The notes under the pieces: model-generated | The model's database searches: none | What the model was told of the DNA's origin: nothing | What the model saw: the letters and a program-made list of their open reading frames with translations, nothing else | Position numbers and translations under genes: made by a program | Shown here: in pieces, positions 194-59,669 of the stretch | How the letters are laid out: each line of letters opens with the position of its first letter | Numbering within the stretch: position 1 is the first letter of the stretch | IMG/VR virus record: IMGVR_UViG_3300020152_000020 | Coordinates: 15,815 to 79,814 of that record | From: a virus | DNA: 64,000 nt | Reading direction: 5' to 3' (one strand)

Positions 194-222
194 TTGACAT
201 TGTGTTAACCGCGCGGTATTGT
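194..222 (+). promoter_or_regulatory. sigma70-like promoter overlapping the palindrome
   Basis: TTGACA (194-199), 17 bp, TATTGT (217-222). Confidence 0.75.
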
Positions 223-2761: not shown

Positions 2762-2789
2762 TTGACACAATGTCATAAACGGGTATGGT
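2762..2789 (+). promoter_or_regulatory. sigma70-like promoter overlapping the palindrome
   Basis: TTGACA, 16 bp, TATGGT upstream of recQ. Confidence 0.65.
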
Positions 2790-5924: not shown

Positions 5925-6472
5925 GCGCGTTAAAGATCGCAATGGAAGCGGTGCGGTACATCGTGGATCAGAAGCCGGAGCACACGAAAAAGGGCCGCTT
6001 ACTGGACAACGTGACTGACGCGCAGGTCGTCAACTCCCTGCTCAGTGAGGCCAACGAGCTACACGAGGCTGTGGTGCTCAACCACAAGGAAGACGCGATC
6101 CCGTATGAAGCTGCGGACGTGCTGATCCCGATTTTCCATCTGTCCAAGCGCCGGGGGTGGTGTGAGGAAGACTTGGCGCGCTGGGTGATCGAGAAGTTGA
6201 TGCTCCGGCACCACCTGTCGGAAGAACAGAAAGCACACATGACGGAGCTACTGGCACGGGTGGTCGCGGCTGACGAAGTTATGCTCCGGGTGGCGGTGGC
6301 TCTCCCCGTGCTTAACCTTGTGTTAACGCGGGCCGGGGTGAAAGACATTCCCCGTGCTGTGGGGCTGCTCACGGAGTTGATCGCGGACTTCCAGCGGTGC
6401 TTTCCTGAAGTGGTCGCTGAAGCGAAACGGCGCGCGGAACAAAAAGAGAAGCCGGGAAGCTCTGAAGCCTGA
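5921..6472 (+). CDS. MazG-like (NTP pyrophosphatase fold) protein
   Basis: SEANELHEAV...YEAADVLI resembles the ExxE...ExxD metal-binding pattern. Confidence 0.5.
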   Translation: MSALKIAMEAVRYIVDQKPEHTKKGRLLDNVTDAQVVNSLLSEANELHEAVVLNHKEDAIPYEAADVLIPIFHLSKRRGWCEEDLARWVIEKLMLRHHLSEEQKAHMTELLARVVAADEVMLRVAVALPVLNLVLTRAGVKDIPRAVGLLTELIADFQRCFPEVVAEAKRRAEQKEKPGSSEA

Positions 6473-7429: not shown

Positions 7430-7489
7430 AAAACAAAACGAAGGTCTGGGCGTCGGTTGACAGTGTGTTAACCGCTGAGGGATGCTGCC

Positions 7490-9226: not shown

Positions 9227-9407
9227 GCTCGCGTTGCTGCTGATCGCCGGGTTGTCGTATTTGTTGGGAGAGGGGCCACAACCATGCTTCAAACTGCCGT
9301 TAACCGCAAACCCAGAGCCGCCGAAGGCATACCGGAATGTTACGGGGTATCTTTTTCCGGTGAGTCTCGAAAATGTGGGGTGTGTCCTGTCCGCGATGCC
9401 TGCGTGA
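9069..9407 (+). CDS. XRE-family helix-turn-helix protein
   Basis: VRTLRERAELSQSDVAILYGLCHRNQVSLCEKG; GGGGG RBS before GTG 9069; overlaps helicase tail. Confidence 0.55.
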   Translation: MNKLNRRNESRVLGLAVRTLRERAELSQSDVAILYGLCHRNQVSLCEKGENFKLALLLIAGLSYLLGEGPQPCFKLPLTANPEPPKAYRNVTGYLFPVSLENVGCVLSAMPA

Positions 9408-10252
9408 CACAATGTCAACGGTGGCTGCTCCGGGCGTCCCTGTCGGAGCGGCTGAAGGTGCTCGAAAAGAGCATGGTGATTTCGAGTGAGACGTTGAACT
9501 TGCCGCAGCTTTACACGCGCCTGTACGAGCAGCACTACGGAACGCGGGATTGTCCTGATCTGGTCACTGGGGCGGCGGCGTTCGGGGCTTTTGGCTGGGT
9601 GGATCGGTTCTGCCGGGAGAACGACATCGACCCGGCGCTGTGGATCACGGCCCAGATGCACGGCATGAAGATGTTTCTCGACAAGCAGCGGGAGTCTGGC
9701 GGGCACTGCCCGTACTTCCGCATCAACATGCTTTGTGGGGACAAGGCGAAGGTTCGCTACAACGTTTATCTGCGGATCGCGTACCGCCGCTTCCGGCACG
9801 TCGGGGTTGACGTGTTCAACGGGCGCACGGATTTGACGAAGCTCTGCGTCGAGTTGAAGGAAGACGAAGAACGGATCGGCGCGTTCTATTGCATGAACGT
9901 GGTCGAGGGGCATCCGGTGTCGTGGCGCGAGTGTGTCAACGTTTGCGAGGCAGGCGAGTTGTGGCGCGCGGTTCACGAAGTGCCGGGCATCGCTTCGATG
10001 AAGAAGCTGACTGAACTGCGCCAGACGTACGACATGGAAACAATCAAGCGGTTGAAGACGCTTGCCACGCTGCGGGCTGCTGTCGCAGTCGCTTCCCGGT
10101 ACGCGTATGACCTTGCTGATCGGATCGGTTATCGCGATCCGTTCCTCTGGAATGACTTCGCAATGCTCTTGCTCCGGCTGTACGGCGGCGAGAAGATTAC
10201 ACCTGTGAATAAGGTAAAGGGGATCGCTGGAACTGAGTGGAGAGGGGCGTAA
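9284..10252 (+). CDS. Hypothetical protein (Cys-rich N-terminus), possible helicase loader/accessory
   Basis: 322 aa directly upstream of and coupled to the DnaB-like gene; C-x11-CxxC-x5-C. Confidence 0.65.
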   Translation: MLQTAVNRKPRAAEGIPECYGVSFSGESRKCGVCPVRDACVTQCQRWLLRASLSERLKVLEKSMVISSETLNLPQLYTRLYEQHYGTRDCPDLVTGAAAFGAFGWVDRFCRENDIDPALWITAQMHGMKMFLDKQRESGGHCPYFRINMLCGDKAKVRYNVYLRIAYRRFRHVGVDVFNGRTDLTKLCVELKEDEERIGAFYCMNVVEGHPVSWRECVNVCEAGELWRAVHEVPGIASMKKLTELRQTYDMETIKRLKTLATLRAAVAVASRYAYDLADRIGYRDPFLWNDFAMLLLRLYGGEKITPVNKVKGIAGTEWRGA

Positions 10253-11757: not shown

Positions 11758-11852
11758 CACGCGCTTTCTTGCGGTCTTTCCCGCATAGCGCGACTTGTTT
11801 GCTTATGACATTGTGTTAACATGGGTGGCGGCTCGAAAGGAAGGAGACGCCT

Positions 11853-15658: not shown

Positions 15659-16462
15659 ATGCCGAACGATTTGGATTCAGTGTTTTGCCCGTCCTGCGGA
15701 ATGAAGACGCACCTTACCGCGTCTGGCCGAAGCATCTGTCCGAACTGTCTGGACCTGAAAGCAAAGCCGTACACGCTCGACCTGTCGCTCCCTGTGCTGC
15801 TTGAGGCTCCGATCCCGCCGACTGAGAACCTGAGTTGCACCGTCTGTACGGAGCGCGCGACGCGGTATATCATCATAGCTTCGCACCGCCCGGTGTCGCT
15901 GCTCTGCGAACTGCATTACAAAATGTTGCTCACGCAGGAAGTTGAGCGGTTCAAAGCGGGTGCAGCGGCGATGATGGGTCAGGTGACGAAGGCCGCGAGC
16001 ATGTTCGATTTCGTGGCGCTTGAGATTTGCCTGCTCTCCATGATGTCGCTGCGGGACGCCGGGAAGAACGCGCAGTTCCGGGATGCGTACACTGCGGTCC
16101 CGCTACCGGACGCTCCCGCTCCCAACCTTCAAAACATCGGCACGCAGACGGGCCGGATGCAGTCTGTGGTGCCGAACGAATCGGGGACAGCCAAGCCAGC
16201 GCGCCCGGTTCACTGCCCGCGCTGTGCGCAGGAACGCGGCGTTGCGATCCCGAAGGAATGCCCGCACGTGTCGCCGAACAAGGGCGGGTGCTGGTATTGC
16301 TGGATCGCTGATAACAAGTTGGTCTTTTGCAACGAATTCGATACGTATATCCATATCGACTGCATCAAGGCGCAGTTGGCAGCGTTGCCGCCCGGAACTG
16401 AAGACCCGGAACTTGCGGTGATCGCGGCGGAATTCAAGGAAGCTCTGGCTGAGGGCGGTTAA
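15659..16462 (+). CDS. Multi-Zn-finger hypothetical protein
   Basis: CPSC, CPNC, CTVC, CELH, CPRC, CWYC motifs. Confidence 0.65.
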   Translation: MPNDLDSVFCPSCGMKTHLTASGRSICPNCLDLKAKPYTLDLSLPVLLEAPIPPTENLSCTVCTERATRYIIIASHRPVSLLCELHYKMLLTQEVERFKAGAAAMMGQVTKAASMFDFVALEICLLSMMSLRDAGKNAQFRDAYTAVPLPDAPAPNLQNIGTQTGRMQSVVPNESGTAKPARPVHCPRCAQERGVAIPKECPHVSPNKGGCWYCWIADNKLVFCNEFDTYIHIDCIKAQLAALPPGTEDPELAVIAAEFKEALAEGG

Positions 16463-16466
16463 CACA

Positions 16467-16694
16467 ATGTCAACCGGGAACCCTGAATGCTTTGGGAACG
16501 TGACGCGCAGCCGGGAGTGTAATGGCTGCGCGGTGAAGATGGAGTGCTACGAACAGCAGCAGACGGATTTGGCGGTGTACCTGCTCCCGAAGGACAGGCC
16601 CGCTCCGAAGGACGCACCGCCGAAGCCCGCCCGGTACGTGAAGGAAACGCCGACACCGAAGGTGAACGATGCCGCCGATCAAGAAGACGAATAA
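16467..16694 (+). CDS. Small Cys-containing hypothetical protein
   Basis: ATG lies inside a palindrome copy; CFG...CNGC...C. Confidence 0.55.
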   Translation: MSTGNPECFGNVTRSRECNGCAVKMECYEQQQTDLAVYLLPKDRPAPKDAPPKPARYVKETPTPKVNDAADQEDE

Positions 16695-20513: not shown

Positions 20514-20540
20514 TTGACATTATGTTAAAGGGGGGTCCGC

Positions 20541-25063: not shown

Positions 25064-25113
25064 CCTTACGTGAAAGTCGCATAAATTTCTCGCGTTGCGC
25101 GGGAAAAACCGCG

Positions 25114-25142
25114 TTGACATTGTGTTAACCGGGGGGTAAGTT
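25114..25142 (+). promoter_or_regulatory. sigma70-like promoter of the ParB gene, overlapping the palindrome
   Basis: TTGACA, 17 bp, TAAGTT; second palindrome at 25231-25245 in the leader. Confidence 0.7.
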
Positions 25143-25289
25143 TCGGATGTCGCAGTTGGGGTTTCAGGGTTCACAAAGCAAATGTCGCGGTGGCAGTCCA
25201 CCGTAAATGCTGGCAGGGGTGGGAGCGTGGTTGACACAGCGTCAATCGCCCGGCTCCGGGCAAGGCCACAAAAAATGGAGAAAATCACC

Positions 25290-26411
25290 GTGGCTGTAAC
25301 AAAGAAGAAAAGTCTCGACGAGGGCAAGGGTGCGGCAGCGGTTGCCGAACAGCCGACCATTCACGGCGTGCTGGTCAATTCGGGCGACATCAAGCACGGC
25401 GGCACGGCGAAGAAGCCGTTCGTCTGCCTGCTGAACCGCAAGGTCATTCACGTGCAGAAGGGCTTCAACCCGCGCACGAGCGGTCTGGGCGAGATCGACA
25501 CGCTCGCGGAGTCGATCAAGAAGGACGGTCTGCTGTCTACTCCCGTCGTTCGCCCGGACGCCGACAAGCCGGGGCACTTCCTGCTGGTCGCTGGCGAGCG
25601 CCGCCTCAAGGCGTGCGATCTGATCGGTCTGGAAGAAATTCCGGTCCAGATTCGCACCGACCTGACGGGCGATGACGACAAGGCGAAGGCTGTCGCCGTC
25701 GCGGAAAACTCCGAAGACGGGCGCACCAACCTCAATTCGATTGAAGTCGGTCGCGTCTGCAAGGACCTCGAAGACAAGGGCTGGACCGTGGCGCGCATCG
25801 CGTCGGAGTGCGGTCTGCATCCGATGAAGGTCCGGCGCTGTCTCACGCTGGTCAACGCGCCCGAAGACGTTGTGAAGAAGGTGGAGAAGGGCGAAATCTC
25901 CATGATCGCCGGGCTGGAACTGGCGAAGCTCGACGACGACACCCGCAAGAAGATCAAGGGCGATCTGACGGCGGAAACGTCGGCGGCGGAAGTGAAGAAG
26001 CTCGCCAAGGCGGCGGCGAAGGAGAGCGAGGGCGCTACGGACGGCGCTGGCAAGCCGAACCAGAAGAAGACGGGTAAGGCGCGCGACGCGGCGCTGTACA
26101 CGTGGCAGGGGTCGAAGGCGAAGCAGGCCAAGATCGCGGAACTGGCTTATTACATCGCCAACGCGGGCGAGGACAAGGGCACGGGCGACTGGCACGAACT
26201 GCGCGGCTCGCTGGCGGCGCTGCTCTGGGATCGCGGCGACCTGACGGAGATCATGCTCCCGAACGCGGAGAGCGAGAAGCCCGCCGATAAGAAGGCGCTG
26301 AAGAAGTTCGAGGAACTGGTCGAGAAGGAAGCGGCCAAGCACACGCCGCCCGCTGTCGAGGGCGAGGGTGCCGAAGCCGAACCGGAAGAAGCGGCGGCGG
26401 GGAAGAAGTAA
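25290..26411 (+). CDS. parB: ParB/Spo0J-family CTPase with HTH
   Basis: FNPR, LAESIKKDGLLSTPVV, LVAGERRLKA (GxRR), AENSEDGR, HTH WTVARIASECGLHPMKVRRCL; GGAG RBS before GTG 25290 (ATG 25275 alternative). Confidence 0.9.
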   Translation: MAVTKKKSLDEGKGAAAVAEQPTIHGVLVNSGDIKHGGTAKKPFVCLLNRKVIHVQKGFNPRTSGLGEIDTLAESIKKDGLLSTPVVRPDADKPGHFLLVAGERRLKACDLIGLEEIPVQIRTDLTGDDDKAKAVAVAENSEDGRTNLNSIEVGRVCKDLEDKGWTVARIASECGLHPMKVRRCLTLVNAPEDVVKKVEKGEISMIAGLELAKLDDDTRKKIKGDLTAETSAAEVKKLAKAAAKESEGATDGAGKPNQKKTGKARDAALYTWQGSKAKQAKIAELAYYIANAGEDKGTGDWHELRGSLAALLWDRGDLTEIMLPNAESEKPADKKALKKFEELVEKEAAKHTPPAVEGEGAEAEPEEAAAGKK

Positions 26412-26431
26412 CTTCCCTGTCCTGCGGGGTG

Positions 26432-26465
26432 AAGAACGGGCGGGAAACCGCCCGTTCTTTTTTTT
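26432..26465 (+). terminator. Rho-independent terminator
   Basis: AAGAACGGGCGG-gaaa-CCGCCCGTTCTT followed by T run. Confidence 0.9.
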
Positions 26466-27476
26466 ATGCGAAAGGGCGACTACGTGACTCCGATCCTGAT
26501 TGACGGCAACAATCTGATTAAGCGCGCCTGTATGGCGTCGGCTCTCGACGACCTGAAGGCTGGGGGCGTCTTCACCGGGGGTATCTATGGGACGCTCAAC
26601 TCGCTCGCGTCGTTCCTGAACATGCCTGAAGTCATGGCGGGGCCGATCTGGTGCTTCATGGACGGGGGCACGCCGCCCTTCCGGTTGAAGCTGCTCCCTG
26701 AGTACAAGTCGAAGCGCGCGGAGAAGCGGGACTTGCTCCCGCCCGCTGAACAGAAGAAGTGGCTTCAGCAGTTCGTGCTCTCCGGTGAGATGCTGGAATT
26801 GCTGGGGGTGTCCTGCATCAAGTACAAGAACTTCGAGGCCGACGACGTGGTGGCTGCGGCTGTCCGGCTCTGCGTTGAAGCCGGGCACGTCCCGGTGGTG
26901 GTGTCCAGCGACAAAGACTTGTGGCAGGTTGTCCGCATGGGTGCGGTCGTCTACGATCTGGCAAACGACCGTTGGGTCATGGACGAGAACTTCGAAGAAC
27001 TGGCTGGCACGCGCCCGGAGACATACCTGCTTTATCGTACGCTGGTCGGTGACACGTCGGATTCGATTCAGGGCTGTCGCGGTTGTGGCAAAGGGACGGC
27101 TCCCAAGGTAATCGCGGAGTTGCATGAGGCGCTGGGTGACGATCTTTACGGGTACGATCCGCTGGCGCAGCTTGATTTCGTCCGCGCGGTTATCACTGAG
27201 AAGCCGGAGAAGGAACGTAAGGCGTACGAGCGCAATTTCCTCGACGACTACGGGCGGCTCGTGAACGTGATGAAGGGAATCGACCTGTCGGCGTCGTTCA
27301 CTGACATCGACGATCTGCGGGCGAAGATGCAAACGCGGCTCCCGGTCCAGATGAAGAAGCTGCTGCAACTGGCCGTCAAGCTGAAGTTCAGTTCTGTCAT
27401 GGGTTCCCCACAACGCTACATTCGCCCGTTCAGCGAGGCACAGGAACGCTGCAAGCAGCCCGTGTTCCCGGCTTAA
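26466..27476 (+). CDS. 5'-3' exonuclease / flap endonuclease (T4 RNase H-like)
   Basis: LIDGNNLIKRA, EADDVV, SSDKDLWQ, GDTSDSIQGCRGCG. Confidence 0.9.
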   Translation: MRKGDYVTPILIDGNNLIKRACMASALDDLKAGGVFTGGIYGTLNSLASFLNMPEVMAGPIWCFMDGGTPPFRLKLLPEYKSKRAEKRDLLPPAEQKKWLQQFVLSGEMLELLGVSCIKYKNFEADDVVAAAVRLCVEAGHVPVVVSSDKDLWQVVRMGAVVYDLANDRWVMDENFEELAGTRPETYLLYRTLVGDTSDSIQGCRGCGKGTAPKVIAELHEALGDDLYGYDPLAQLDFVRAVITEKPEKERKAYERNFLDDYGRLVNVMKGIDLSASFTDIDDLRAKMQTRLPVQMKKLLQLAVKLKFSSVMGSPQRYIRPFSEAQERCKQPVFPA

Positions 27477-27518
27477 CACAATGTCAAAAAATAATTCTCG
27501 CTACACGCGGGAAAAACG

Positions 27519-28512: not shown

Positions 28513-28548
28513 TCGGGCGGCGCTTTGACACTGTGTTAAGGGGGTATC

Positions 28549-30605: not shown

Positions 30606-31615
30606 AAACGGCTGGGCGATGGGTGGTGACTGCGGACCTTCAGTTCGACGAGCACGCGAGCCTGTCTACGCTCACGCCGTCCGGGGTCACGTCGCGGTTG
30701 AAGGATATGATCGACTGCTGGCACTGGATCATGGCGACGGCGATTAAGCGGAACTGCGAAGGCATCATCGTCATCGGCGACATCTTCGATTCGCGGACGG
30801 TGATCGACTTGTCTGTGCTGGATCAGGTCTGCCGGGGGTTCCATGCCGCTCATGAGAAGGGGCTGCGGCTTATCATCGTCGCGGGAAACCACGACAGCTA
30901 CCTGCGCTCCCCGAAGATGAACAGCCTTCAGGTGTTCAAGGGGTACGCGCAGGTTGTGGAAGTGACGCACGTGGAAGACGGGATGGGCTTCGTCGCTTGG
31001 ACCGAAGACATCACGGCGCTGCGGTCGGGCATTGACACTGTGTTAAAGGGCGGGGCGAAGTACCTGTTTACGCACGTGTTGCTGCGGGGTGCGGTCACTG
31101 GCGGCGACAAAGGCGTCCCTGTCGATGCGCTCCGGCCTGAGAAGTTCGAGCAAGTGTTTCTGGGCGACGTGCACGATCCTCGCGAGATCACGGAGAACGT
31201 TCGCTACGTTGGCTCCCCGTTGCAGATCAATTATGGCGACGCGGGTGGTTGGCGCGGCATCGTGGTGTTTGATCGCAAGTCTGGCGAGATCGAGACGGTC
31301 GAAAACACGGTGTCGCCGAAGTTCCACGTGATCGAAGACGCCACGGTCGAGGGTGTGAAGTCGAACGATTTCGTCCGGGTGAAGACTGACGATCCTGAGA
31401 TCGCGGCGGAAGCCGAAGCGGCGGCGAAGGTGAAGACGGGCTGGGTGGAGTCCACGTTCGTTGAGAAGCCGGACATCAAGCCGCGTCTGGACGTTCGCAC
31501 GAGCCACGCGCATGAAGTCGTGCTCGCCCGGTACTGCACGCATCAGGGGATCGAAGAGGTTGACTCGCTCGTGAAAGTCGGCATGGAGATTATCGAGGAA
31601 GCGAAGCATGGGTAA
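30602..31615 (+). CDS. SbcD/Mre11/gp47-like nuclease
   Basis: TADLQ, IGDIFD, AGNHD, THV, LGDVH, YVGSP. Confidence 0.9.
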   Translation: MKTAGRWVVTADLQFDEHASLSTLTPSGVTSRLKDMIDCWHWIMATAIKRNCEGIIVIGDIFDSRTVIDLSVLDQVCRGFHAAHEKGLRLIIVAGNHDSYLRSPKMNSLQVFKGYAQVVEVTHVEDGMGFVAWTEDITALRSGIDTVLKGGAKYLFTHVLLRGAVTGGDKGVPVDALRPEKFEQVFLGDVHDPREITENVRYVGSPLQINYGDAGGWRGIVVFDRKSGEIETVENTVSPKFHVIEDATVEGVKSNDFVRVKTDDPEIAAEAEAAAKVKTGWVESTFVEKPDIKPRLDVRTSHAHEVVLARYCTHQGIEEVDSLVKVGMEIIEEAKHG

Positions 31616-32106: not shown

Positions 32107-33893
32107 TGAATTTTCATGTTCCTGTAAAACTGTTGAAGGTCGCGATCAAGCAGTGGCCGAAGGAGTTCACGAAGGACATCGTGGACATGTCGGAACTGTG
32201 GGGTGGCGAACGTGAGCTAACTCTGAGTGCTACGCGTCTGCCGCGCTCCCGGCTCGCTGACTTTCAGAAGCTCGCGAAGATCAACGGCGCGAATGGGCTG
32301 GCAAATAAAATCGGCCTGTACATGAATCTGATCGACAACGTGGCTGGGAAGCGTATCACACGGCTGGAAGAACTGAACACGGCGCTGAAGCTGTATCTGA
32401 AGTCGGCTCCGAATTTCTGGGTCTTTGGTGAGCAGGACGACGGGTATCCGGTTCCATTCTTTGTGTCGCATATCAAGAAGGTGGATCGGTACAAGGACAC
32501 GCCGCCGTACGTCCGCATGACGCTTCAGTTCATGGATGCCGGGAAGCCGGACGAGAGGTACGTTGACTGGGAAACGAAGGACTTGGGTAAGAACCTTGTC
32601 GAGTTGCTCAACGAGGCCGGGTATTACCGGGCGACGAAAAGTGCCATCGAGCAGTACCAGAAAGACATTGAGATTTTCAAGAAGCTCTCGCCGATGGTTG
32701 GGCAGCAGTTCACTGCTACCGGGTTCGGGTTCTTTGCTGAGGAAGGTTACGATAATCGTTTTGAGTGCTCGTCCCTCGAATGTGACGGCCAGCCTGCCCG
32801 ACTTGTGCTCGACGATCTGTCTGAGGAAAAGGACGACGATAGTTCGAGTCGCCGCTGGCGTGGTAAGTCGGTGTGTGATGAAGGGCTGGGGCTGCTGTCG
32901 TTCTGGGAGAAGGATGAAGACCCGGATGACGTTGACGAGCAGGACGAAGCGGCGAAGACCTGTGCGCTCCCGGTCCATCCGTACCTGAAATGCTTCGATC
33001 TGGTCCGGCACGAATTCGTCTGGGTCCACTGCTCGAACATGGTCCAGTATGTGTACGATTCGGAGTTGGTGGACAAGCTCGTGCTACCGTCTGACACGAA
33101 GTCGCTGGTCAAGATTCTGATGCACGGCGCGTCGATCAAGATGGACGACATCATTAAGGGCAAGACAGGCGGCGTCATCGTGATCGCCAGCGGCCCGCCC
33201 GGCACCGGAAAGACGCTCACGGCGGAAGTGTTCTCCGAACACATTAAGTGCCCGCTGTACGTGGTTCAGTGCTCGCAGCTTGGCATCGACGAAGAAACGG
33301 TCGAGGGGCGGCTCCGCACCGTGCTGGCGCGGTCGCAACGCTGGGGTGCGTTGCTGCTGATCGACGAGGCCGACGTGTACGTCCACGAACGCGGTCACGA
33401 CATTCACCAAAACGCGATTGTCGGCGTGTTCCTGCGGGTGCTTGAGTATTATCGCGGCATCCTGTTTATGACTTCGAACCGGGCGACCATCATCGACGAC
33501 GCGATCATGTCGCGAGCTACAGCGTGGCTGAAGTACGACTTCCCGACGCCGGACGAATTGAAGTCGCTCTGGCAGATTCTGGGCAAGCAGTACGGGGTTG
33601 CGCTGTCGGATCGCGACATCGACCTGCTGATCCGCGACTTCCCGATCCTGTCCGGGCGCAACATCAAAAATATGCTGAAGCTGTCGCGAATGCTCGCGGC
33701 GGAAAAGAAGGCAAAGGTCACGACGGACACGATCCGGTACTGTGCCAAGTTCCTTGACCTGTCTCATGGAGAACGCGCAGATGGAAAGAGCAATAACGGA
33801 GCGGTGGCAAGTGGTCGAAACCGTGTTCCTGCGAAGCGAAAAGCCGGGGGCGATGACGGACCCGACTTCTCCGAACTCGATGGTCAACGTTGA
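32106..33893 (+). CDS. AAA+ ATPase with long N-terminal domain
   Basis: SGPPGTGKTLTAE, LLIDEADVY, FLRVLEYYRGILFMTSNR, IDDAIMSR, LSGRNIKN. Confidence 0.9.
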   Translation: MNFHVPVKLLKVAIKQWPKEFTKDIVDMSELWGGERELTLSATRLPRSRLADFQKLAKINGANGLANKIGLYMNLIDNVAGKRITRLEELNTALKLYLKSAPNFWVFGEQDDGYPVPFFVSHIKKVDRYKDTPPYVRMTLQFMDAGKPDERYVDWETKDLGKNLVELLNEAGYYRATKSAIEQYQKDIEIFKKLSPMVGQQFTATGFGFFAEEGYDNRFECSSLECDGQPARLVLDDLSEEKDDDSSSRRWRGKSVCDEGLGLLSFWEKDEDPDDVDEQDEAAKTCALPVHPYLKCFDLVRHEFVWVHCSNMVQYVYDSELVDKLVLPSDTKSLVKILMHGASIKMDDIIKGKTGGVIVIASGPPGTGKTLTAEVFSEHIKCPLYVVQCSQLGIDEETVEGRLRTVLARSQRWGALLLIDEADVYVHERGHDIHQNAIVGVFLRVLEYYRGILFMTSNRATIIDDAIMSRATAWLKYDFPTPDELKSLWQILGKQYGVALSDRDIDLLIRDFPILSGRNIKNMLKLSRMLAAEKKAKVTTDTIRYCAKFLDLSHGERADGKSNNGAVASGRNRVPAKRKAGGDDGPDFSELDGQR

Positions 33894-34173
33894 CATTGTG
33901 TCAATTAAAACTGAGGGCGGCATGATGGTCGTCCCTCAGATGCAGAAGGCTGCTGCGGAGCACGTGGTTCGGCTACACAACGAGGAACTGGAACACGGAG
34001 CGCGGATCACTGAAATCTGGTTGCAGCGTCGGGGCGTTGAGAACGATCCGCACGCTAAGGCTGTGGTGATGCTCCGAACGAAGGGCGGGACGTGGGTGAA
34101 GGGGCTGGAAGAACCGCTTGATGGGAACTTCAGCCATTGCCTGCATGTCCGGGCTGCGACGTTGAAGGGTTGA
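33781..34173 (+). CDS. Hypothetical protein
   Basis: GGAG RBS before ATG 33781. Confidence 0.55.
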   Translation: MERAITERWQVVETVFLRSEKPGAMTDPTSPNSMVNVDIVSIKTEGGMMVVPQMQKAAAEHVVRLHNEELEHGARITEIWLQRRGVENDPHAKAVVMLRTKGGTWVKGLEEPLDGNFSHCLHVRAATLKG

Positions 34174-36280: not shown

Positions 36281-36296
36281 CGCGAGGGTTAACACA

Positions 36297-36962
36297 GTGT
36301 CAGACGGGCGGAAGAAGGGCCTCGCGTTCGAGAACGACATCTGCCGGGCGTTCTCAGTCTGGATGTTCCCCGGTCAAGGCTTCGAGGAAGCCGTTGTTCC
36401 GGCCCTTCCGTTCCGCCGAAGGTTCACCGACTCAACGCCGCTGGATGGGCACTGGGAAGGTGCGGGTGATGTTCTTCATCGCCCGGACGTGAAGTTCCCG
36501 TTCTGTACTGAGTGTAAGAAGGTTGAAGGGTGGGAGTTGGACGGGATGCTCGCGAACGAGCAGTGGCCTGTTTGGGATTGGTGGAGTCAGTGTAAGGCCC
36601 AAGCAGAGGCGGTCGGTCAGGTTCCCTTACTTGTGTTCACGCGGAACCGTCGTGGCATCTACGTTTTAGTCGAAGAAGGAGTTCTCCAATGTCTCAGACT
36701 GCAACCAAAGCACGGACCCGTTCTGGTGGTGCGGCGTGGAAACGGGGAAAGACTCGCACTGCTACTGCTCGCCGATCTCGTGGCGACGCCGTGCAACTTG
36801 GTGGCTTGCTTGACGGTGAAAAAACCAAAGTCGCCAGCCGTGAGATCGAAGAATATCTCTGCGTCACCTTCGGCATCCAGAAGCCCGCTGCCACGCGCGT
36901 CTGGGATGCGATCCTCGAACGGCTCCGTGGCTCGCTTCTCCAAGGTCGCCCGGTCACGCTGA
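36297..36962 (+). CDS. Holliday-junction resolvase-like PD-(D/E)xK nuclease
   Basis: GRKKGLAFENDI...GDV...ECKKVE...WWSQC...PLLVFTRNR. Confidence 0.7.
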   Translation: MSDGRKKGLAFENDICRAFSVWMFPGQGFEEAVVPALPFRRRFTDSTPLDGHWEGAGDVLHRPDVKFPFCTECKKVEGWELDGMLANEQWPVWDWWSQCKAQAEAVGQVPLLVFTRNRRGIYVLVEEGVLQCLRLQPKHGPVLVVRRGNGERLALLLLADLVATPCNLVACLTVKKPKSPAVRSKNISASPSASRSPLPRASGMRSSNGSVARFSKVARSR

Positions 36963-37108
36963 CGAACATCGGGACCATCGAACCGTACACGAAGAAGGAG
37001 TCCACGTTCCGGCATCCGACGACGGGCAAGTTGGAGAAGGTTCCGGCTCGCCGCTACGTTCGCTTTTTGCTGTCGCCCAGCTTGAAGACTGAACTGCGCG
37101 CGGAGTAA
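36689..37108 (+). CDS. HU/IHF-like DNA-binding protein with basic N-terminal extension
   Basis: AAGGAG RBS; GRPVTLTNIGTI...FRHPTTG...VPARRYVRF..SPSLK. Confidence 0.75.
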   Translation: MSQTATKARTRSGGAAWKRGKTRTATARRSRGDAVQLGGLLDGEKTKVASREIEEYLCVTFGIQKPAATRVWDAILERLRGSLLQGRPVTLTNIGTIEPYTKKESTFRHPTTGKLEKVPARRYVRFLLSPSLKTELRAE

Positions 37109-37235: not shown

Positions 37236-37934
37236 ATGGCTTTGACGGAACAGGAAAAGAACATCGTACGCCGGGCCTTCTCAATGGGTCCGGCTGCTTT
37301 GTTAGACGACGGGTACACATGGGCCAACATCGGCGATTTCCTCGCCCGCCCGGACGTTAAAGCTGAACTCGAACTGTTGCAGTCAGAGTTTAACAATCAG
37401 GACGCACTACTGACGCGCAGCAAGTTCGTCGCCAAGCGCCAACTCGCCCGGTTCGCACAGGGCGCTGTTGCCGTGCTGGGTCAGGCTCTGGCTGGTCCGG
37501 TGTACGCCCGCGACAACAAGGGCAACATTTTGATGGACGCGCAGGGCCGTCCGATCATGCAGTCAGCCCCGCCGCACGAAATGCAGTACAACGCTGCGAC
37601 GCAGATTTTGAACCGTCTGGGGGTCGATACGGACAAGCCTGCTGATCGCGCGGGTGACATGAACGTTCAGCTTTTGTTCAAGTCGGGCGAGGCGTCGGCC
37701 AAGGTTCAGATCACGACCGATCCGGCGTTGCTCACGTCTGAAGAACAGGCGCTGTCGCGCGAGCGCGTGCGCAACGCGTTCGAGAAGCTGGCAAAGCGTC
37801 TGCCCGAAGCGCAAGCCAAGATCAAGGCCGCGCTGGGGAATCCTCAGCCGGAAGAAGCAGCCGCGAAGAAACCAAAGAAGAAATCCAAGGCCAAGCCGAA
37901 GCCCGTTAACACAGTGTCAACCACTACGGAGTAA
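37236..37934 (+). CDS. Putative terminase small subunit
   Basis: Helical ~230 aa gene directly upstream of TerL; positional inference. Confidence 0.45.
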   Translation: MALTEQEKNIVRRAFSMGPAALLDDGYTWANIGDFLARPDVKAELELLQSEFNNQDALLTRSKFVAKRQLARFAQGAVAVLGQALAGPVYARDNKGNILMDAQGRPIMQSAPPHEMQYNAATQILNRLGVDTDKPADRAGDMNVQLLFKSGEASAKVQITTDPALLTSEEQALSRERVRNAFEKLAKRLPEAQAKIKAALGNPQPEEAAAKKPKKKSKAKPKPVNTVSTTTE

Positions 37935-43352: not shown

Positions 43353-43380
43353 TTGACATTGTGTCATTCCCGTGTAACTT
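43353..43380 (+). promoter_or_regulatory. sigma70-like promoter overlapping the palindrome
   Basis: TTGACA, 16 bp, TAACTT. Confidence 0.65.
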
Positions 43381-44418: not shown

Positions 44419-44562
44419 ATGGGTATCGCGATTTGGCTGGGCGTCACATTGTTGGGTGTGTTAAAGTGGGGGCCGGGTGACGAGTCTGCGCTGTGCTGCG
44501 CTCTGGGACTGGTCGCCGGGCTTTTGTACGTGAGCGCCGTCTCTCAGAAAGGGGTTGACACA

Positions 44563-44730
44563 ATGTCACAGGAAACTGACAAACCGAAGCCAAGGCCGGG
44601 GCCGCTGGTCGAAGACGAAACGGTCGTGGGTGGCTACGACGAACAGACGGGCGCGGCGGTGATCCGGCCCAAGACGCCGGACGGTCGCGCGGACGAATCG
44701 ACGCGGCCTACGGATCGCCGCGAGAAGTAA
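44563..44730 (+). CDS. Small hypothetical protein
   Basis: AAAGGGG RBS; ATG inside palindrome copy 44555. Confidence 0.45.
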   Translation: MSQETDKPKPRPGPLVEDETVVGGYDEQTGAAVIRPKTPDGRADESTRPTDRREK

Positions 44731-45309: not shown

Positions 45310-45395
45310 CTTTGTGGGGGGCCGGGTGTGCGTCGAGAGGGTTCGGCGCGCGCCCGGTTTTTCTTTTGACACTGTGTTAATGAAAGGGGTGTACG

Positions 45396-47767: not shown

Positions 47768-47900
47768 GGGTATTACATCAACGTCTGGTTCAGACGACTC
47801 CGGGTTAAGTTCGTGCACGGTACGATTAATATGTGGGAAGAGAATAACGCTGACGGCACCGACACGGAGTGGGTGGCGAGCTACCGAAGGGAATGACACA

Positions 47901-48143
47901 ATGTCAAAGAAGAAAACGCGGGCGAAGGGCGGCTCCCGTCTTCTGGGTGTGGCTGGCTCTGACGGGCATACGCGGATCACGAACGGGCCGGGGTACACGT
48001 TGTCGGGCGGCGATAAAGAAACCCACGAGCGAATGCAGACGACGGCGGAAAAGTTTAACGAGCAGCTTCAGAAGAAGGGCAAACGGCTTGAAGACATCGG
48101 GCCGTCTGAGTTCCGGGACATGATTGGAGACGCGCAACGATGA
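47901..48143 (+). CDS. Small conserved hypothetical protein
   Basis: ATG inside palindrome 47893; DGHTRIT...GGDKETHERMQ...KFNEQL. Confidence 0.6.
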   Translation: MSKKKTRAKGGSRLLGVAGSDGHTRITNGPGYTLSGGDKETHERMQTTAEKFNEQLQKKGKRLEDIGPSEFRDMIGDAQR

Positions 48144-48525: not shown

Positions 48526-49053
48526 ATGACGGACTATGTGGCAGGGTTCCTTTTCAGCGAGGATCGAAGTCAGGTGGTGTTGATCCTCAAGGATCATCCC
48601 GAATTTCAGCGCGGGAAGTTCAACGCTATCGGCGGCAAGATCAGGCCGGGTGAGTCTCCGTTTCAGGCGATGCGCCGGGAGTTTCTCGAAGAAGCGGGTG
48701 TGGACATCCCGGAAGGACTCTGGGAACCGTCCGTTCTGCTGGCGGGCGACTGCTGGCGGGTCTTCACGTTCGCGGCGTACGGCGACGTTCGCAAGGCACG
48801 CACTACCGAAGCCGAACAGGTGTACACCTTCCCGGTGTCGCACGTGTCGAATCTGCCGACGCTGCGGAACGTGCCCATGTTGATCGCGCTCTGTCTCGAC
48901 GTGACGATCCACAAGCCGATCCTGTTGACGGACGCAGAGATCAGGAAGACGCCCGCCGACGTGACGAATGTGTTTCACAGGTTCGCGATGCCGTCTGAGG
49001 GGCCTGTGCTGGTCTCGCCGCCCGGCGATCCCGACGACGCGATGCACGGTTGA
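48526..49053 (+). CDS. Nudix hydrolase
   Basis: Nudix box GGKIRPGESPFQAMRREFLEEAGV. Confidence 0.9.
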   Translation: MTDYVAGFLFSEDRSQVVLILKDHPEFQRGKFNAIGGKIRPGESPFQAMRREFLEEAGVDIPEGLWEPSVLLAGDCWRVFTFAAYGDVRKARTTEAEQVYTFPVSHVSNLPTLRNVPMLIALCLDVTIHKPILLTDAEIRKTPADVTNVFHRFAMPSEGPVLVSPPGDPDDAMHG

Positions 49054-49082
49054 CACAAGGTTAACGCAAAGGAGCGCACGCG

Positions 49083-50658: not shown

Positions 50659-51017
50659 TGGGTCTGCCAGTGAAGAAGACCGGGGTGACGACTCCGGTTC
50701 GGAAGGGTCCGGCTGTCGTGGCGGCTCCGGCTAAGGCTGCTACGACGCTCAATCGCACGGTGCCGGACAAGGACACGAAGCCGCCGTACCACGTGAACCA
50801 GTGGGGGAAGATCAACGATCCGCACTGGTTCGATGTCCGGCTGCTGGTCCCGCGTGCGTCAGGTGAGGGGCATGATTGCCTGTTTGTGGCGGTGAAGGGA
50901 GACACGCCAGAGAAACGGGCTGAGGCGCTGAAGACGGCGTTGCTGCGGATCGCGAACATGCGTGAAGCCATTGCTGCGGAGTACCTGAAGTTCCTCAACG
51001 AAGGGTCAGACCGTTGA
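50658..51017 (+). CDS. Hypothetical protein
   Basis: TAATG-coupled; PVKK/PVRKG motifs. Confidence 0.6.
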   Translation: MGLPVKKTGVTTPVRKGPAVVAAPAKAATTLNRTVPDKDTKPPYHVNQWGKINDPHWFDVRLLVPRASGEGHDCLFVAVKGDTPEKRAEALKTALLRIANMREAIAAEYLKFLNEGSDR

Positions 51018-51081
51018 CATTGTGTTAACGAGACGGTTGTAAGCTGGGGGCGGAAGGCAATGTTCATCATAAGGGTGGTTA

Positions 51082-55087: not shown

Positions 55088-55176
55088 TATTTTCTCGCGC
55101 TCTCCAAGAAAGAAGTTGCAATATGCCGCGTCATGCGGCATATTTGTTTTTGACACAATGTCAAAGGGGGGCAGCG

Positions 55177-55446: not shown

Positions 55447-55471
55447 AATGGGTGCGTGAAGGGTTAACACA

Positions 55472-55972
55472 ATGTCAAAGCTCAAAGAGAAAATCGAGAA
55501 GGTGAAGCGGCCCCGGATGACGCTGCTGTTTATTCGCATGGGCTGGTCCCCGTCGAAGAAGCCGCTGCAAATCTGGTATCGCCTGAATGGCGAGACGCCG
55601 GAAGAACAGCGTCAGTCGTACGACAGCTACGATGATGCGCGGGAGATGGCGTTCAGTCCCAAAGGGATGCCGCCTGTGTCGCCCGGCATGACGTACACGT
55701 TCGAGTTTAACCCGGACAATCCGGGTTCGATTTACCCGTCGTCCCGGCACTTCGCCGGGGTGTTCAATCACGACAATGTGACGGAGTGGCTGGCTCAATT
55801 CGAGGCGTTCAAGACGGCTGCGAAAGTTCGCCGTCAAGAGACGCAGGCCAAGCACCGCAACATCTTCGAGAACCTCGATCCGTTCCGGCGCGCGTACCGG
55901 AACCTTCCAGCCGATCAGGGCGCGGCGCTGCTCGCCCGGATGATCCAATACGTTCAGGGGTATAAGCGATGA
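55472..55972 (+). CDS. Hypothetical protein
   Basis: ATG inside palindrome 55464. Confidence 0.65.
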   Translation: MSKLKEKIEKVKRPRMTLLFIRMGWSPSKKPLQIWYRLNGETPEEQRQSYDSYDDAREMAFSPKGMPPVSPGMTYTFEFNPDNPGSIYPSSRHFAGVFNHDNVTEWLAQFEAFKTAAKVRRQETQAKHRNIFENLDPFRRAYRNLPADQGAALLARMIQYVQGYKR

Positions 55973-57905: not shown

Positions 57906-59669
57906 ATGCTGACGGAAACGGAACAGGTGGACGAAGCGGGCGTGAAGCGCATGGTGAAGAAGCGGTCGCAGGGTGATCGTCTCAAAGCCCGCCGCTACTA
58001 CAAACAGAACAAGCGCCGCATCAAGGCGATCCGCACGGGCAAGATTCGCGTGCGCCTGACCATGAACCAGAAGAAGGCCGTCGCCGCCCGGAAGCGCACG
58101 GGCCAGTACAATCGCATCGCGAAGCTGTACAACAGCGCCGACCAACTCCCCGCGACCGTGCTGGGTGAGATCGCGCACTCGAAGGACTACATTAACACTG
58201 TGTTAGAGGTTGCCGCCGCGTTCAACGATAAGCCGGACGCGCGTGAGTTCGCGAAGTTCTTCCTCGACCGTGACCCGGTGTACTCCAACACGAAGGCCGG
58301 GCTGCACGCGCTCATGTTCGAGAACTGGCTGGCCGACGAAGCCGACAGCATCTACGGAAAGCTGATCGAGACGCACGTGTCGCCCGCCGAAGAGAGCTTC
58401 CTCGCGATCTTCGAAGGCAAGCTGACCGACGAGGAACGGAAGCTGGTCAACGAGAAGGCTGAGTTCATCAAGGCTGAGATGCTGCTCGAAGCCGGAGCCA
58501 TGATCCCCGACGAAGGCGAAGTGTCGGACGTGACGATCATCGAGTGCTTCCCGGTCAAGGGTAAGCACTACGAACCGAAGGACGACGAAGCGTCCGCTCC
58601 CATCGACGCCCCGAAGCCGGAAGATAAGCCGACCGACGAAGCCCTCACTGAAGGCGTCCGGTTCGAGAAGACGATCCGGGCCACGGACGCAACGCTGAAG
58701 GCGCTCGTGTCGTCCAACAGCGACTTCAAGGACATTGACCCGGCGCTGGCTTCGCTGGCTGGCACGGGCGGCACGAAGTACAGCCTCGTGACGGACGGCA
58801 CGGTGGGCGTGATCGTCAACGCGGAAGGGTACGACTATCCCCGCTACAAGTCCCCGCGCATGATGATGACGATCATCAACAAGCTGACGCCGGAGCAGAT
58901 CGAGAAGTGTGTGGGCCGGAAGGAGAACTTCCCGCCGAAGATGCTGGTCCACGATCCGGTGTCGCTCGACCGCCTCATGCAGATGTTCGAGGGCGTCAAC
59001 GAAGGCCGCGTGCTGCCCACTGAGAATGAATCGTACGGCTTCTACGGAACCTGCATCACGGCAGGGAAGACGGAAGCCGAAGCGAAGAATCTCTGGGATG
59101 AAGCCAGCAAGGGGCTGAAGAAGCTGAACCCCAAGGCGACTCCCGAACAGATTCGCGACTTCCTCGACTCGCGCATCGGTCGCCATATCGCCGATCAGGT
59201 CGCGGGGGATAACAAACCCGTTGACACTGTGTTAAAGGAAAAGTGGGTCGGCAAGGACTTCAGCAAGTTCGTCGGCACGGGGAAGGTGCGCGGCTTCGGG
59301 GAAGGAACCGACACCGTCACCAAAGACGACGGTAACGATCTGGCGGAAGAGATGGGCCGCTACGAGTCCAGCAAGCTGAACGTGAACGAAGGGGGCGACG
59401 ACGAGGAAATCACCCGCCTCACGTTCGGGAAGATTCCGGCGTGGAAAGAGTTCGAAGCCGCGTTCGATGACCGCGTTGAAGGCAATGGCTACAATATCAA
59501 ACTCAGCAGCAGCGATTCCAAGGCGGCTGAAGGAACCAGCATCGGGGATGGACGACTGAAGGCACCCGCGCTGTACAAGGGCATCAAGGAACTGATCGCG
59601 AAGGGCGACGAAGATGCGGACGACCTCGCCAGCAGCATCCTGTACACGCTGGGCTTCGAGTGGGTGTGA
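57906..59669 (+). CDS. Large modular protein, probable virion/prohead-core protein
   Basis: 587 aa; basic N-terminal block; repeated [LVI]xE-[GA] linkers. Confidence 0.6.
   Translation: MLTETEQVDEAGVKRMVKKRSQGDRLKARRYYKQNKRRIKAIRTGKIRVRLTMNQKKAVAARKRTGQYNRIAKLYNSADQLPATVLGEIAHSKDYINTVLEVAAAFNDKPDAREFAKFFLDRDPVYSNTKAGLHALMFENWLADEADSIYGKLIETHVSPAEESFLAIFEGKLTDEERKLVNEKAEFIKAEMLLEAGAMIPDEGEVSDVTIIECFPVKGKHYEPKDDEASAPIDAPKPEDKPTDEALTEGVRFEKTIRATDATLKALVSSNSDFKDIDPALASLAGTGGTKYSLVTDGTVGVIVNAEGYDYPRYKSPRMMMTIINKLTPEQIEKCVGRKENFPPKMLVHDPVSLDRLMQMFEGVNEGRVLPTENESYGFYGTCITAGKTEAEAKNLWDEASKGLKKLNPKATPEQIRDFLDSRIGRHIADQVAGDNKPVDTVLKEKWVGKDFSKFVGTGKVRGFGEGTDTVTKDDGNDLAEEMGRYESSKLNVNEGGDDEEITRLTFGKIPAWKEFEAAFDDRVEGNGYNIKLSSSDSKAAEGTSIGDGRLKAPALYKGIKELIAKGDEDADDLASSILYTLGFEWV

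What the first reader, a model, noticed from the sequence alone, without database searches (positions are those of the whole stretch)
25114..26465. Orphan ParB CTPase in its own transcription unit, bracketed by two palindrome copies
Seen: a complete ParB N-domain (NPR, GERR, EN motifs) plus an HTH with a non-Spo0J recognition helix (PMKVRRCL). It has its own sigma70 promoter whose -35 is a palindrome copy (25114), a second copy in the leader (25231) and a strong terminator. No ParA/tubulin and no canonical parS (TGTTNCACGTGAAACA) were seen in the window. Established: ParB-family clamps load at palindromes, spread CTP-dependently, and often autorepress (KorB, Noc, VirB). Inference: with the ~30 sites this is a candidate undescribed phage system in which one CTP clamp both organises or segregates the genome and represses promoters.
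Basis: partly seen in the sequence, partly recalled or inferred. Interest (0 to 1): 0.88.

Follow-up and report, generated by a model that had tools for sequence, protein, structure and literature searches.

The report
Lone phage ParB with genome-wide palindromes
A large uncultivated phage carries a partner-less ParB-type DNA clamp gene and dozens of evenly spaced copies of one short palindrome, and related phages suggest (without proving) that the protein docks on them, which would make the role of lone phage ParB proteins testable.

Summary
Window 25275-26411 encodes a 378-aa ParB-family protein. It has intact nucleotide-pocket motifs, a ParB-type HTH and a clade-specific helical C-terminal domain. 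Its -35 is a palindrome copy, a weaker copy lies in the leader, and a 13-bp terminator hairpin follows the gene.

ParB is truly orphan. No ParA, canonical parS or ParA-binding motif was found, including in three 98-100% complete relatives.

It is a core gene, always RecA-ParB-FEN, of an uncultivated clade of roughly 140-160 kb phages with T4-type portals and no tyrosine integrase.

Each genome carries 17-56 copies of a lineage-specific palindrome with a shared GACA-N3-TGTC core. Copies are spaced far more evenly than chance (P<=0.002 in four genomes). They sit mostly at gene junctions but also inside long genes.

They are not generally sigma70 promoters, and they show no hairpin covariation.

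Three things link ParB to the sites:
- strict co-occurrence;
- a conserved copy at its own promoter;
- a recognition-helix residue that tracks the palindrome's outer bases in 19 of 20 phages, though with only two independent contrasts.

Binding, CTP use and function remain untested.

Closest known: KorB, Noc, BisD. Earlier unchecked notes of this scan report similar pairings in over 50 other genomes.

The parts
25113..25129 (.). Palindrome copy 1 (GTTGACATTGTGTTAAC). Its left half is the -35 of the parB promoter.
   Evidence: A copy at the same place upstream of parB occurs in L005, L006, L007, L010, L092, L093, L103, L104 and L127.
25114..25142 (+). Putative sigma70-type parB promoter: TTGACA, 17 nt, TAAGTT.
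   Evidence: Read. The -10 matches only 3/6 and was not called by the scan. The layout is conserved in relatives with -10 CATAAT or CATACT.
25230..25246 (.). Palindrome copy 2 in the parB leader (GTTGACACAGCGTCAAT). It is degenerate.
   Evidence: It is not conserved in relatives.
25275..26411 (+). parB: orphan ParB-family protein of 378 aa. N-domain about 60-150, HTH about 155-250, clade-specific helical C-terminal domain 268-353.
26431..26465 (+). Intrinsic terminator: 13-bp stem, 4-nt loop, T-run. The FEN start codon follows at 26466.
   Evidence: A strong hairpin after parB is conserved in most relatives.
194..208 (.). Palindrome copy, intergenic. TATTGT lies 17 nt downstream (promoter-like).
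2762..2776 (.). Palindrome copy upstream of the DEAD-box helicase gene. TATGGT lies 16 nt downstream (promoter-like).
6312..6326 (.). Palindrome copy inside a gene (1 mismatch).
7457..7471 (.). Palindrome copy, intergenic, 18 nt before the 578-aa helicase gene.
9404..9418 (.). Palindrome copy near the helicase / 322-aa gene junction; the gene call places it inside the 322-aa ORF (1 mismatch).
11805..11819 (.). Palindrome copy, intergenic, after dnaB (1 mismatch).
16459..16473 (.). Palindrome copy on a stop codon, upstream of the PolA region. A copy at the matching place occurs in G1.
20514..20528 (.). Palindrome copy, intergenic, 12 nt before the Pif1 helicase gene.
27473..27487 (.). Palindrome copy on the FEN stop codon, 46 nt upstream of a separate TTGACA-16-TAGACT promoter-like site.
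28525..28539 (.). Palindrome copy, intergenic, 9 nt before the next start codon.
31032..31046 (.). Palindrome copy inside the SbcD-like gene, at the same codon position in four phages.
33890..33904 (.). Palindrome copy on a stop codon.
36289..36303 (.). Palindrome copy just after sbcC (1 mismatch).
37906..37920 (.). Palindrome copy at the end of the 247-aa gene, 19 nt before the terminase-like gene.
43353..43367 (.). Palindrome copy, intergenic. TAACTT lies 16 nt downstream (promoter-like; 1 mismatch).
44555..44569 (.). Palindrome copy inside a gene (1 mismatch).
45366..45380 (.). Palindrome copy, intergenic, 15 nt before the next start codon.
47893..47907 (.). Palindrome copy, intergenic (1 mismatch).
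49050..49064 (.). Palindrome copy on a stop codon, 18 nt before the next start codon (1 mismatch).
51014..51028 (.). Palindrome copy on a stop codon.
55150..55164 (.). Palindrome copy at a gene start.
55464..55478 (.). Palindrome copy overlapping the next start codon.
58192..58206 (.). Palindrome copy inside the 587-aa gene (1 mismatch).
59221..59235 (.). Palindrome copy inside the 587-aa gene.
60356..60370 (.). Palindrome copy inside the 1322-aa gene.
63371..63385 (.). Palindrome copy inside the 1322-aa gene (1 mismatch).

Best explanation
The gene encodes a ParB/KorB/Noc-type nucleotide-gated DNA clamp that works without ParA. The proposed mechanism is as follows. Its HTH reads the phage's own 15-17-bp palindrome (TTRACA-YWR-TGTYAA here; other outer bases in related phages). 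Dimers load at these sites, which are spaced every 2-9 kb over the whole chromosome. From there the protein covers or marks the phage DNA. The copy on its own -35, and perhaps the one in the leader, gives self-repression of a monocistronic, terminator-bounded parB unit.

Shown by sequence and comparison:
- the fold and the conserved pocket motifs;
- orphan status;
- core-gene status within the replication/recombination module;
- the reality, lineage specificity and even spacing of the sites;
- the conserved site at the parB promoter.

Inferred:
- that ParB is the reader of the sites;
- that it uses CTP and slides;
- the downstream role. I judge genome-wide coverage (chromosome marking or organisation, or a timing effect on transcription) more likely than classical promoter-by-promoter repression.
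For: Fold:
- Pfam ParB_N plus HTH_ParB.
- PDB sequence hits to Spo0J, ParB, Noc and KorB.
- The AF2 model has pLDDT 88.6. Foldseek's best hits are ParB, Noc and KorB, with target-normalised TM 0.78 to KorB 8qa9.
- G107, R110, E144 and N145 are invariant, and N65, P66, R67, E108 and R109 nearly so, in 82 orthologues.

Orphan status:
- No AAA_31 or CbiA match above threshold in the contig or in the 98% and 100% complete relatives G1 and G2.
- 0 of 82 orthologues carry the ParA-binding motif.

Sites:
- 42 copies in G0, 38 in G1, 17 identical 23-mers in G2 and 56 in G6, against about 1-4 expected.
- Gap CV is 0.59, 0.63, 0.40 and 0.54 against about 0.95 expected, with P<=0.002 in each genome.
- Copies are placed inside long genes. 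One lies at the same codon of the SbcD-like gene in four phages, where it dictates the encoded peptide.

Link to ParB:
- ParB is present in every clade member found through RecA. It is the only clear sequence-specific DNA binder among about 20 core genes.
- The sigma-factor gene of G0 is absent from G1, G2 and G6, which still keep the palindromes.
- A palindrome sits upstream of parB in 10 phages. In L010 and L103 it is the changed TAGACA version.
- Helix residue 189 aligns with position 179 of Caulobacter ParB, next to the base-contacting N178. It is Cys in 9 of 10 phages with TT-type sites and not Cys in 10 of 10 phages with other sites.
- R187 and R188 are nearly invariant, matching the invariant GACA/TGTC core.
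Against: - No binding data exist.
- The helix-site correlation rests on only two phylogenetically independent contrasts, so the sign test has no power. There is one exception: L020 has Cys with GTGACA sites.
- In G2, L008, L009 and about half of the short contigs, no palindrome lies upstream of parB.
- The C-terminal domain matches no known ParB dimerisation domain, so clamp closure is not assured.
- ParB-fold proteins can bind ATP or GTP rather than CTP (PMC12704722).
- G0 is only 68% complete.
Confidence: 0.52

Rival explanations
1. The palindromes are read by a different phage protein, for example the conserved 322-aa protein at window 9284-10252 or another uncharacterised core protein. In that case ParB has an unrelated job in replication or recombination, where its gene sits between RecA and FEN.
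For: The 322-aa core protein has a weak phrog_1098 'HTH DNA binding protein' hit. Several core proteins have no annotation. An HU-like protein is also core. Palindromes lie upstream of many genes, so a copy at parB is not unique. G2 and L008 have none at the parB promoter.
Against: ParB is the only core protein with a confident sequence-specific DNA-binding domain. Its recognition helix varies where the palindromes vary and is constant where they are constant. HU-type proteins are not expected to give sharply lineage-specific 15-23-bp sites (general knowledge).
Confidence: 0.2
2. The palindromes act as hairpins in RNA or in extruded DNA. They would be intercistronic stabilisers, processing sites or terminators of the long co-directional transcripts, and would have nothing to do with ParB.
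For: Most copies lie in short gaps between a stop codon and the next ribosome-binding site. In G2 the repeat is a 10-bp-arm, 3-nt-loop palindrome that would fold stably.
Against: There is no compensatory covariation. In G0 the paired positions 3 and 13 read GT 18, GC 11, AC 10 and AT 3, so mismatching A/C is commoner than pairing A/T. G1 behaves the same way. The sequence itself is conserved, not just the pairing. Copies occur inside genes at conserved places. No T-run follows them. No Rfam family matches. Even spacing is not expected of terminators.
Confidence: 0.07
3. The copies are simply the -35 elements, with a symmetric spacer, of host-sigma70 early promoters.
For: The half-site in this phage equals the TTGACA consensus. 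Two of the five promoter-like sites found on the + strand of the contig use a palindrome as their -35, a third has one 46 nt upstream, and the parB and 43353 sites have weaker -10s at promoter spacing.
Against: Only 4-5 of 42 copies have a TAnnnT at 16-18 nt. Many lie 8-20 nt before a start codon or inside genes. Relatives use GTGACA, TAGACA, CTGACA or CCAACA halves. A -35 element has no need for dyad symmetry.
Confidence: 0.05
4. A host transcription factor or nucleoid protein binds the palindromes.
For: Nothing specific. The hosts are unknown, so this cannot be excluded.
Against: The sites change between related phages while staying uniform within each genome (17 identical 23-mers in G2). 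That is the pattern expected of a co-evolving phage-encoded reader.
Confidence: 0.05

Closest known systems
KorB and its 12 OB operators on IncP plasmid RK2 (PMC11790492)
   Same: KorB has a ParB-CTPase fold plus an HTH. Its palindromic sites are dispersed over the replicon, some of them at promoters, and it regulates itself. It has the best whole-chain structural superposition on the model (target-normalised TM 0.78).
   Different: KorB has a ParA partner (IncC) and clamp-locking partners (KorA, TrbA). Here no ParA exists and no KorA-like partner was looked for. Here there are 17-56 evenly spaced sites, mostly not at promoters, in a roughly 150-kb virulent-type phage. The C-terminal domain is different.
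Noc and its NBS sites in Bacillus subtilis (PMC7383237, PMC8429893)
   Same: Noc is an orphan ParB paralogue with many sites scattered over a chromosome. It arose by changes in the recognition helix.
   Different: Noc tethers DNA to the membrane to block cell division. No membrane-targeting helix was examined here, and a phage has no such need. The site sequence is unrelated.
BisD of ICEclc (PMC12409273) and VirB of Shigella (PMC10770331)
   Same: Both are ParB-like CTP clamps used for gene regulation at a distance on mobile elements, without DNA segregation.
   Different: They use few sites and act as activators or anti-silencers of specific promoters. They are not a genome-wide array.
Canonical ParABS
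   Same: The N-domain motifs and the HTH fold are shared.
   Different: Here there is no ParA, no ParA-binding peptide, no parS and no PF23552 C-terminal domain. Most base-contacting residues are changed: K171, S172, R173, N178 and R204 of Caulobacter ParB align with L, H, P, R and L here.
Stoperators of mycobacteriophage L5 (from my own knowledge; not checked in a paper here)
   Same: These are about 30 copies of a phage-specific site in short intergenic gaps all over the genome. They are bound by one phage protein, and their sequence co-varies with that protein.
   Different: Stoperators are asymmetric and orientation-dependent, and they are bound by an immunity repressor of a temperate phage. 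Here the sites are dyad-symmetric and occur in both orientations, and no integrase was found.

Membership tests
ParB/Spo0J superfamily (ParB-CTPase fold) | ParB N-terminal domain with the GxxR (box II) and ENxxR (box III) nucleotide-pocket motifs | tested here: met
   PF02195 at E 5.7e-10. GERR 107-110 and EN 144-145 are invariant in 82 orthologues.
ParB/Spo0J superfamily (ParB-CTPase fold) | ParB-type helix-turn-helix DNA-binding domain | tested here: met
   PF17762 at E 1.2e-6. It aligns with the HTH of 1vz0 and 6t1f.
ParB/Spo0J superfamily (ParB-CTPase fold) | Binds and hydrolyses CTP | not testable with these tools
   The motifs are conserved, but the fold can also bind ATP or GTP (PMC12704722).
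Canonical ParABS partition system | ParA ATPase partner and an N-terminal ParA-binding peptide | tested here: not met
   No AAA_31 or CbiA above cut-off in G0, G1 or G2. 0 of 82 orthologues have the (L/F/I)G(K/R)G(L/F/I) motif.
Canonical ParABS partition system | Canonical parS (TGTTNCACGTGAAACA) | tested here: not met
   One 3-mismatch hit against 1.4 expected.
Canonical ParABS partition system | ParB C-terminal dimerisation domain (PF23552) | tested here: not met
   No Pfam hit. Residues 268-353 form a four-helix domain with no informative look-alike.
KorB-type global regulator | Many palindromic operators dispersed over the replicon and bound by the protein | tested here: inconclusive
   The sites exist and are non-random. 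Binding is inferred only.
KorB-type global regulator | Operator at its own promoter (autoregulation) | tested here: met
   This is met at the sequence level only. The palindrome is the -35 of the parB promoter, conserved in 10 phages.
KorB-type global regulator | Clamp-locking co-repressor (KorA or TrbA) | not tested
   No search for a partner was made.
Noc | N-terminal membrane-targeting amphipathic helix | not tested
   The N-terminus (residues 1-27) is modelled with low confidence. It was not analysed further.
L5-type stoperator system | Asymmetric sites in one orientation relative to transcription, bound by a temperate-phage repressor | tested here: not met
   The sites are dyad-symmetric and occur in both orientations (TTG 15 against CAA 11 centres in G0). 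No tyrosine integrase was found in four genomes.

The most novel reading that the evidence does not exclude
In a whole clade of virulent-type phages of roughly 140-160 kb, an NTP-gated ParB clamp loads at evenly spaced, phage-specific sites and coats the entire viral chromosome. This would act as a 'self' mark or scaffold that coordinates recombination-dependent replication, packaging or late transcription. A functional parallel would be the T4 gp45 sliding clamp acting as a mobile enhancer. The role would be neither plasmid-style partition nor operator-by-operator repression.
Probability: 0.22. Interest if true: 0.85.

Novelty: new variant of a known kind. Interest (0 to 1): 0.66.

Why it matters
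A recent survey reports orphan ParB-fold proteins as common on mobile elements and in phages, with mostly unknown roles (PMC12704722). The characterised non-partition members (KorB, Noc, VirB, BisD) all come from plasmids, chromosomes or integrative elements.

This locus gives a concrete, testable protein-site pair in a large phage:
- a defined 15-17-bp site;
- natural specificity variants in relatives (TTGACA, GTGACA, TAGACA, CTGACA, CCAACA halves);
- a candidate specificity residue (position 189);
- an unusual quantitative feature, namely even spacing over whole genomes, which points to chromosome-wide coverage.

If confirmed, it would extend CTP-clamp biology to the infection cycle of virulent phages. 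It would also supply orthogonal ParB/site pairs for DNA labelling.

Tried and rejected
- **Nucleotide search of cultured phages:** no match. Protein searches found only distant ParB-like proteins (<=35% identity over part of the protein) and portals of at most about 30% identity. There is no cultured relative.
- **ParB-dependent thymine dioxygenase pathway (PMC13229309):** rejected. No Tet_JBP domain occurs in G0, G1 or G2, and that ParB class lacks an HTH.
- **T7-type RNA polymerase as reader of a phage promoter:** no PF00940 hit, but the control genomes did not ring either, so this is uninformative.
- **Phage sigma factor as reader:** rejected, because it is absent from G1, G2 and G6.
- **Simple recognition code between helix residues and outer bases:** none emerged beyond residue 189.
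- **Independent-contrast test:** underpowered, with only 2 pairs.
- **Distant ParB-less relatives (RecA <=35% identity):** they show no such palindromes. They are too distant to count as a test.
- **Atlas look-alikes:** uninformative for the C-terminal domain and for the 322-aa protein.
- **Rfam:** only the tmRNA matched.
Full report
**What the window is.** The window is bases 15815-79814 of a 95,015-bp IMG/VR phage contig. The contig is 60% G+C and is estimated 68% complete. Nearly all genes lie on the + strand. The finding sits in a replication/recombination module: two helicases, DnaB, primase, a UDG-PolA fusion, Pif1, a gp32-like SSB, RecA, ParB, a 5'-3' exonuclease (FEN), SbcCD-like genes, a PDDEXK nuclease and an HU-like protein. 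A terminase-like gene and a T4-type portal follow. No cultured phage is close.

**The gene.** Window 25275-26411 encodes 378 aa. The longer ORF from 25182 is unlikely, because the N-termini of orthologues align with the ATG at 25275.
- Pfam gives ParB_N (5.7e-10) and HTH_ParB (1.2e-6). PHROGs gives ParB-like families.
- The best solved relatives by sequence are Spo0J, ParB, Noc and KorB.
- An AlphaFold model built on 82 orthologues has mean pLDDT 88.6. It superposes on ParB, Noc and KorB N-domain-plus-HTH structures, best on KorB 8qa9 (target-normalised TM 0.78).
- The pocket motifs NPR (65-67), GERR (107-110) and EN (144-145) are invariant or nearly so across the 82 orthologues.
- After a disordered linker, residues 268-353 form a confident four-helix domain with a conserved LLWDRGDL motif. 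It matches no Pfam family and no informative Atlas cluster. It is not the usual ParB dimerisation domain.
- None of the 82 orthologues has the ParA-binding peptide.

**The transcription unit.** The palindrome at 25113-25129 supplies a perfect TTGACA (25114-25119), 17 nt before TAAGTT (25137-25142).
- The tool's strict scan does not call this a promoter, because the -10 matches only 3 of 6 positions.
- The same layout recurs upstream of parB in L005 (16 nt, TAAAGT), L006 (17 nt, CATAAT) and L007 (17 nt, CATACT).
- A second, degenerate copy at 25230-25246 lies in the roughly 125-nt leader. It is specific to this phage.
- A 13-bp GC-rich hairpin with a T-run follows the stop codon (26431-26460). 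A strong hairpin at this place is conserved in most relatives.
- parB therefore looks like an insulated unit. One complication is that the FEN start codon (26466) abuts the T-run, so FEN must depend on read-through or on a promoter inside parB.

**Orphan status and lifestyle.** No ParA-type ATPase was found in the contig or in two relatives judged 98% and 100% complete. There is no canonical parS. No tyrosine integrase was found in four genomes. ParB here is not part of a partition system, and the phages look virulent.

**The clade.**
- About 80 full-length orthologues (35-66% identity) exist in metagenomes, on contigs of up to roughly 130-185 kb.
- Every locus shows RecA-ParB-FEN synteny.
- All close relatives found through RecA also carry ParB. 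One carries two tandem copies.
- Comparing G0 with three whole relatives (G1 143 kb, G2 156 kb, G6 150 kb with a 127-bp terminal repeat) leaves about 20 shared genes in the 95-kb fragment. ParB is one of them.

**The palindromes.**
- In G0 the motif TTRACA-YWR-TGTYAA occurs 42 times with at most 1 mismatch, 28 of them in the window. Shuffles give about 3-4.
- Relatives carry the same kind of element with a shared GACA-N3-TGTC core but different outer bases:
  - G1: KTRACA-CTG-TGTYAM, 38 copies.
  - G2: 17 identical copies of the 15-bp core GTGACA-SGS-TGTCAC, flanked by near-invariant CCA/TGG arms (a roughly 23-bp palindrome).
  - G6: aYTGACA-YSR-TGTCARt, 56 copies against 1 for the control.
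  - L010 and L103: TAGACA halves.
  - L017: CCAACA halves.
- In all four whole or large genomes the copies are spaced much more evenly than random positions. In the three tested against random gene ends (G0, G1, G2) the same holds. Gap CV is 0.59, 0.63, 0.40 and 0.54 against about 0.95, with P<=0.002 each. The largest gaps are less than half the expected size.
- In G0, 64% of copies are intergenic, although only 16% of the genome is. Many use the TGA or TAA of the motif as the stop codon of the upstream gene and end 8-35 nt before the next start.
- Long genes carry internal copies: two each in the 587-aa and 1322-aa genes.
- One copy sits at the same codon of the SbcD-like gene in four phages. 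There it dictates a variable peptide that is unrelated in phages using other motif types. This shows selection on the DNA word itself.

**What the palindromes are not.**
- They are not, in general, sigma70 promoters. Only 4-5 of 42 have a TAnnnT at 16-18 nt. Only five promoter-like sites exist on the + strand of the contig. Relatives use non-TTGACA halves.
- They are not hairpins. The two positions that would pair (3 and 13) vary independently, and mismatching A/C (10) outnumbers pairing A/T (3).
- No Rfam family matches them.
- They are not tied to the G0 sigma-factor gene, which G1, G2 and G6 lack.
- They are not part of a ParB-activated thymine dioxygenase system (PMC13229309).

Evidence for:
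- Co-occurrence is strict within the clade, and no counter-example was found.
- ParB is the only core protein with a confident sequence-specific DNA-binding domain. The other core DNA binder is HU-like.
- A palindrome lies upstream of parB in ten phages. In L010 and L103 it is the changed TAGACA version.
- The recognition helix is constant where the sites are constant and variable where they vary. R187 and R188 are nearly invariant, matching the GACA/TGTC core. Positions 183, 184, 189, 191 and 194 vary.
- By alignment to Caulobacter ParB, R188 takes the place of the base-contacting N178, and C189 that of position 179. K171, S172, R173 and R204 are replaced by L, H, P and L. This fits a re-wired specificity (PMC7383237).
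- Residue 189 is Cys in 9 of 10 phages with TT-type half-sites, and Ala, Val or Tyr in 10 of 10 phages with other half-sites.

Evidence against, or limits:
- On the ParB tree this amounts to 3-4 changes and only two independent contrasts. Both are concordant, which is too few for significance.
- L020 is an exception.
- Several phages have no copy at the parB promoter.
- A 322-aa core protein with a weak 'HTH DNA binding' PHROG hit remains a possible alternative reader.

I put the probability that ParB binds the palindromes at about 0.6. I put the full statement (NTP-gated clamp, self-regulating, acting genome-wide) at about 0.5.

**Mechanism and comparison.**
- The closest known system is KorB with its OB operators on RK2. 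KorB is a CTP-dependent sliding clamp that loads at dispersed palindromes and represses promoters at a distance (PMC11790492). Noc (many chromosomal sites) and BisD and VirB (regulatory ParB clamps on mobile elements) are next (PMC7383237, PMC12409273, PMC10770331).
- This locus differs in several ways: there is no ParA at all, the C-terminal domain is different, there are 17-56 sites rather than a dozen, the sites are evenly spaced and mostly away from promoters, and the setting is a virulent-type phage of about 150 kb.
- Even spacing and the insertion of copies into long genes point to coverage of the whole chromosome rather than control of particular genes. What that coverage achieves (transcription timing, organisation, or marking phage DNA for replication, recombination or packaging) is open.

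**Context in this scan and in the literature.** Earlier notes of this scan, which are AI notes I did not check, report similar orphan ParB plus dispersed-palindrome pairings in more than 50 other genomes. A note on this same window lists the palindromes. A recent survey records orphan ParB-fold proteins as common on mobile elements and in phages (PMC12704722). My literature searches found no characterised case in a phage of this kind.

**Verdict.** The finding is a new variant of a known kind, and it is well suited to direct biochemical testing.

Noticed in passing
window 57442-57816 (+): A phage-encoded tmRNA with tag peptide ANPFAQQSRVAA. It was called by both ARAGORN and Rfam (160.9 bits).
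   Followed up: partly
L125:10605-11849 and L125:11862-12878: One relative (IMG/VR contig 3300008516_000402) carries two tandem ParB paralogues with different recognition helices (RRYLTL and RRALIL). Its palindromes have CCAACA half-sites.
   Followed up: partly
genome 92206-93225 (window coordinate 76392-77411, outside the window): A sigma70-family gene (Sigma70_r2, E 1.9e-9) with a palindrome copy 22 nt upstream. It is absent from the complete relatives G1, G2 and G6.
   Followed up: partly
window 26460-26468: The FEN (5'-3' exonuclease) start codon directly abuts the T-run of the parB terminator. FEN expression therefore needs read-through or a promoter inside parB.
   Followed up: no
window 25100-25112 and 27505-27518: A shared upstream element (gcgggaaaaac) precedes the TTGACA of two promoter-like sites. 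It may be a UP-like element of this phage's early promoters.
   Followed up: no
G1 (IMG/VR 3300037245_000806), all sites: The central base of the palindrome is T on the coding strand in 27 sites and A in 9. This is a strand bias that a symmetric dimer would not explain. G0 shows a weaker bias (25 to 16).
   Followed up: no
window 14946-15584 (+): An HNH_3 plus NUMOD4 homing-endonuclease-like gene next to the DUF932 gene. Inteins are annotated in PolA and in the terminase-like gene of relative L010.
   Followed up: no
window 36689-37108 (+): An HU-family DNA-binding protein gene that is conserved in all four genomes of the clade.
   Followed up: partly
G6 (IMG/VR 3300029922_000014) 83-97 and 150392-150406: The 127-bp direct terminal repeat of this complete relative contains a palindrome copy.
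   Followed up: no
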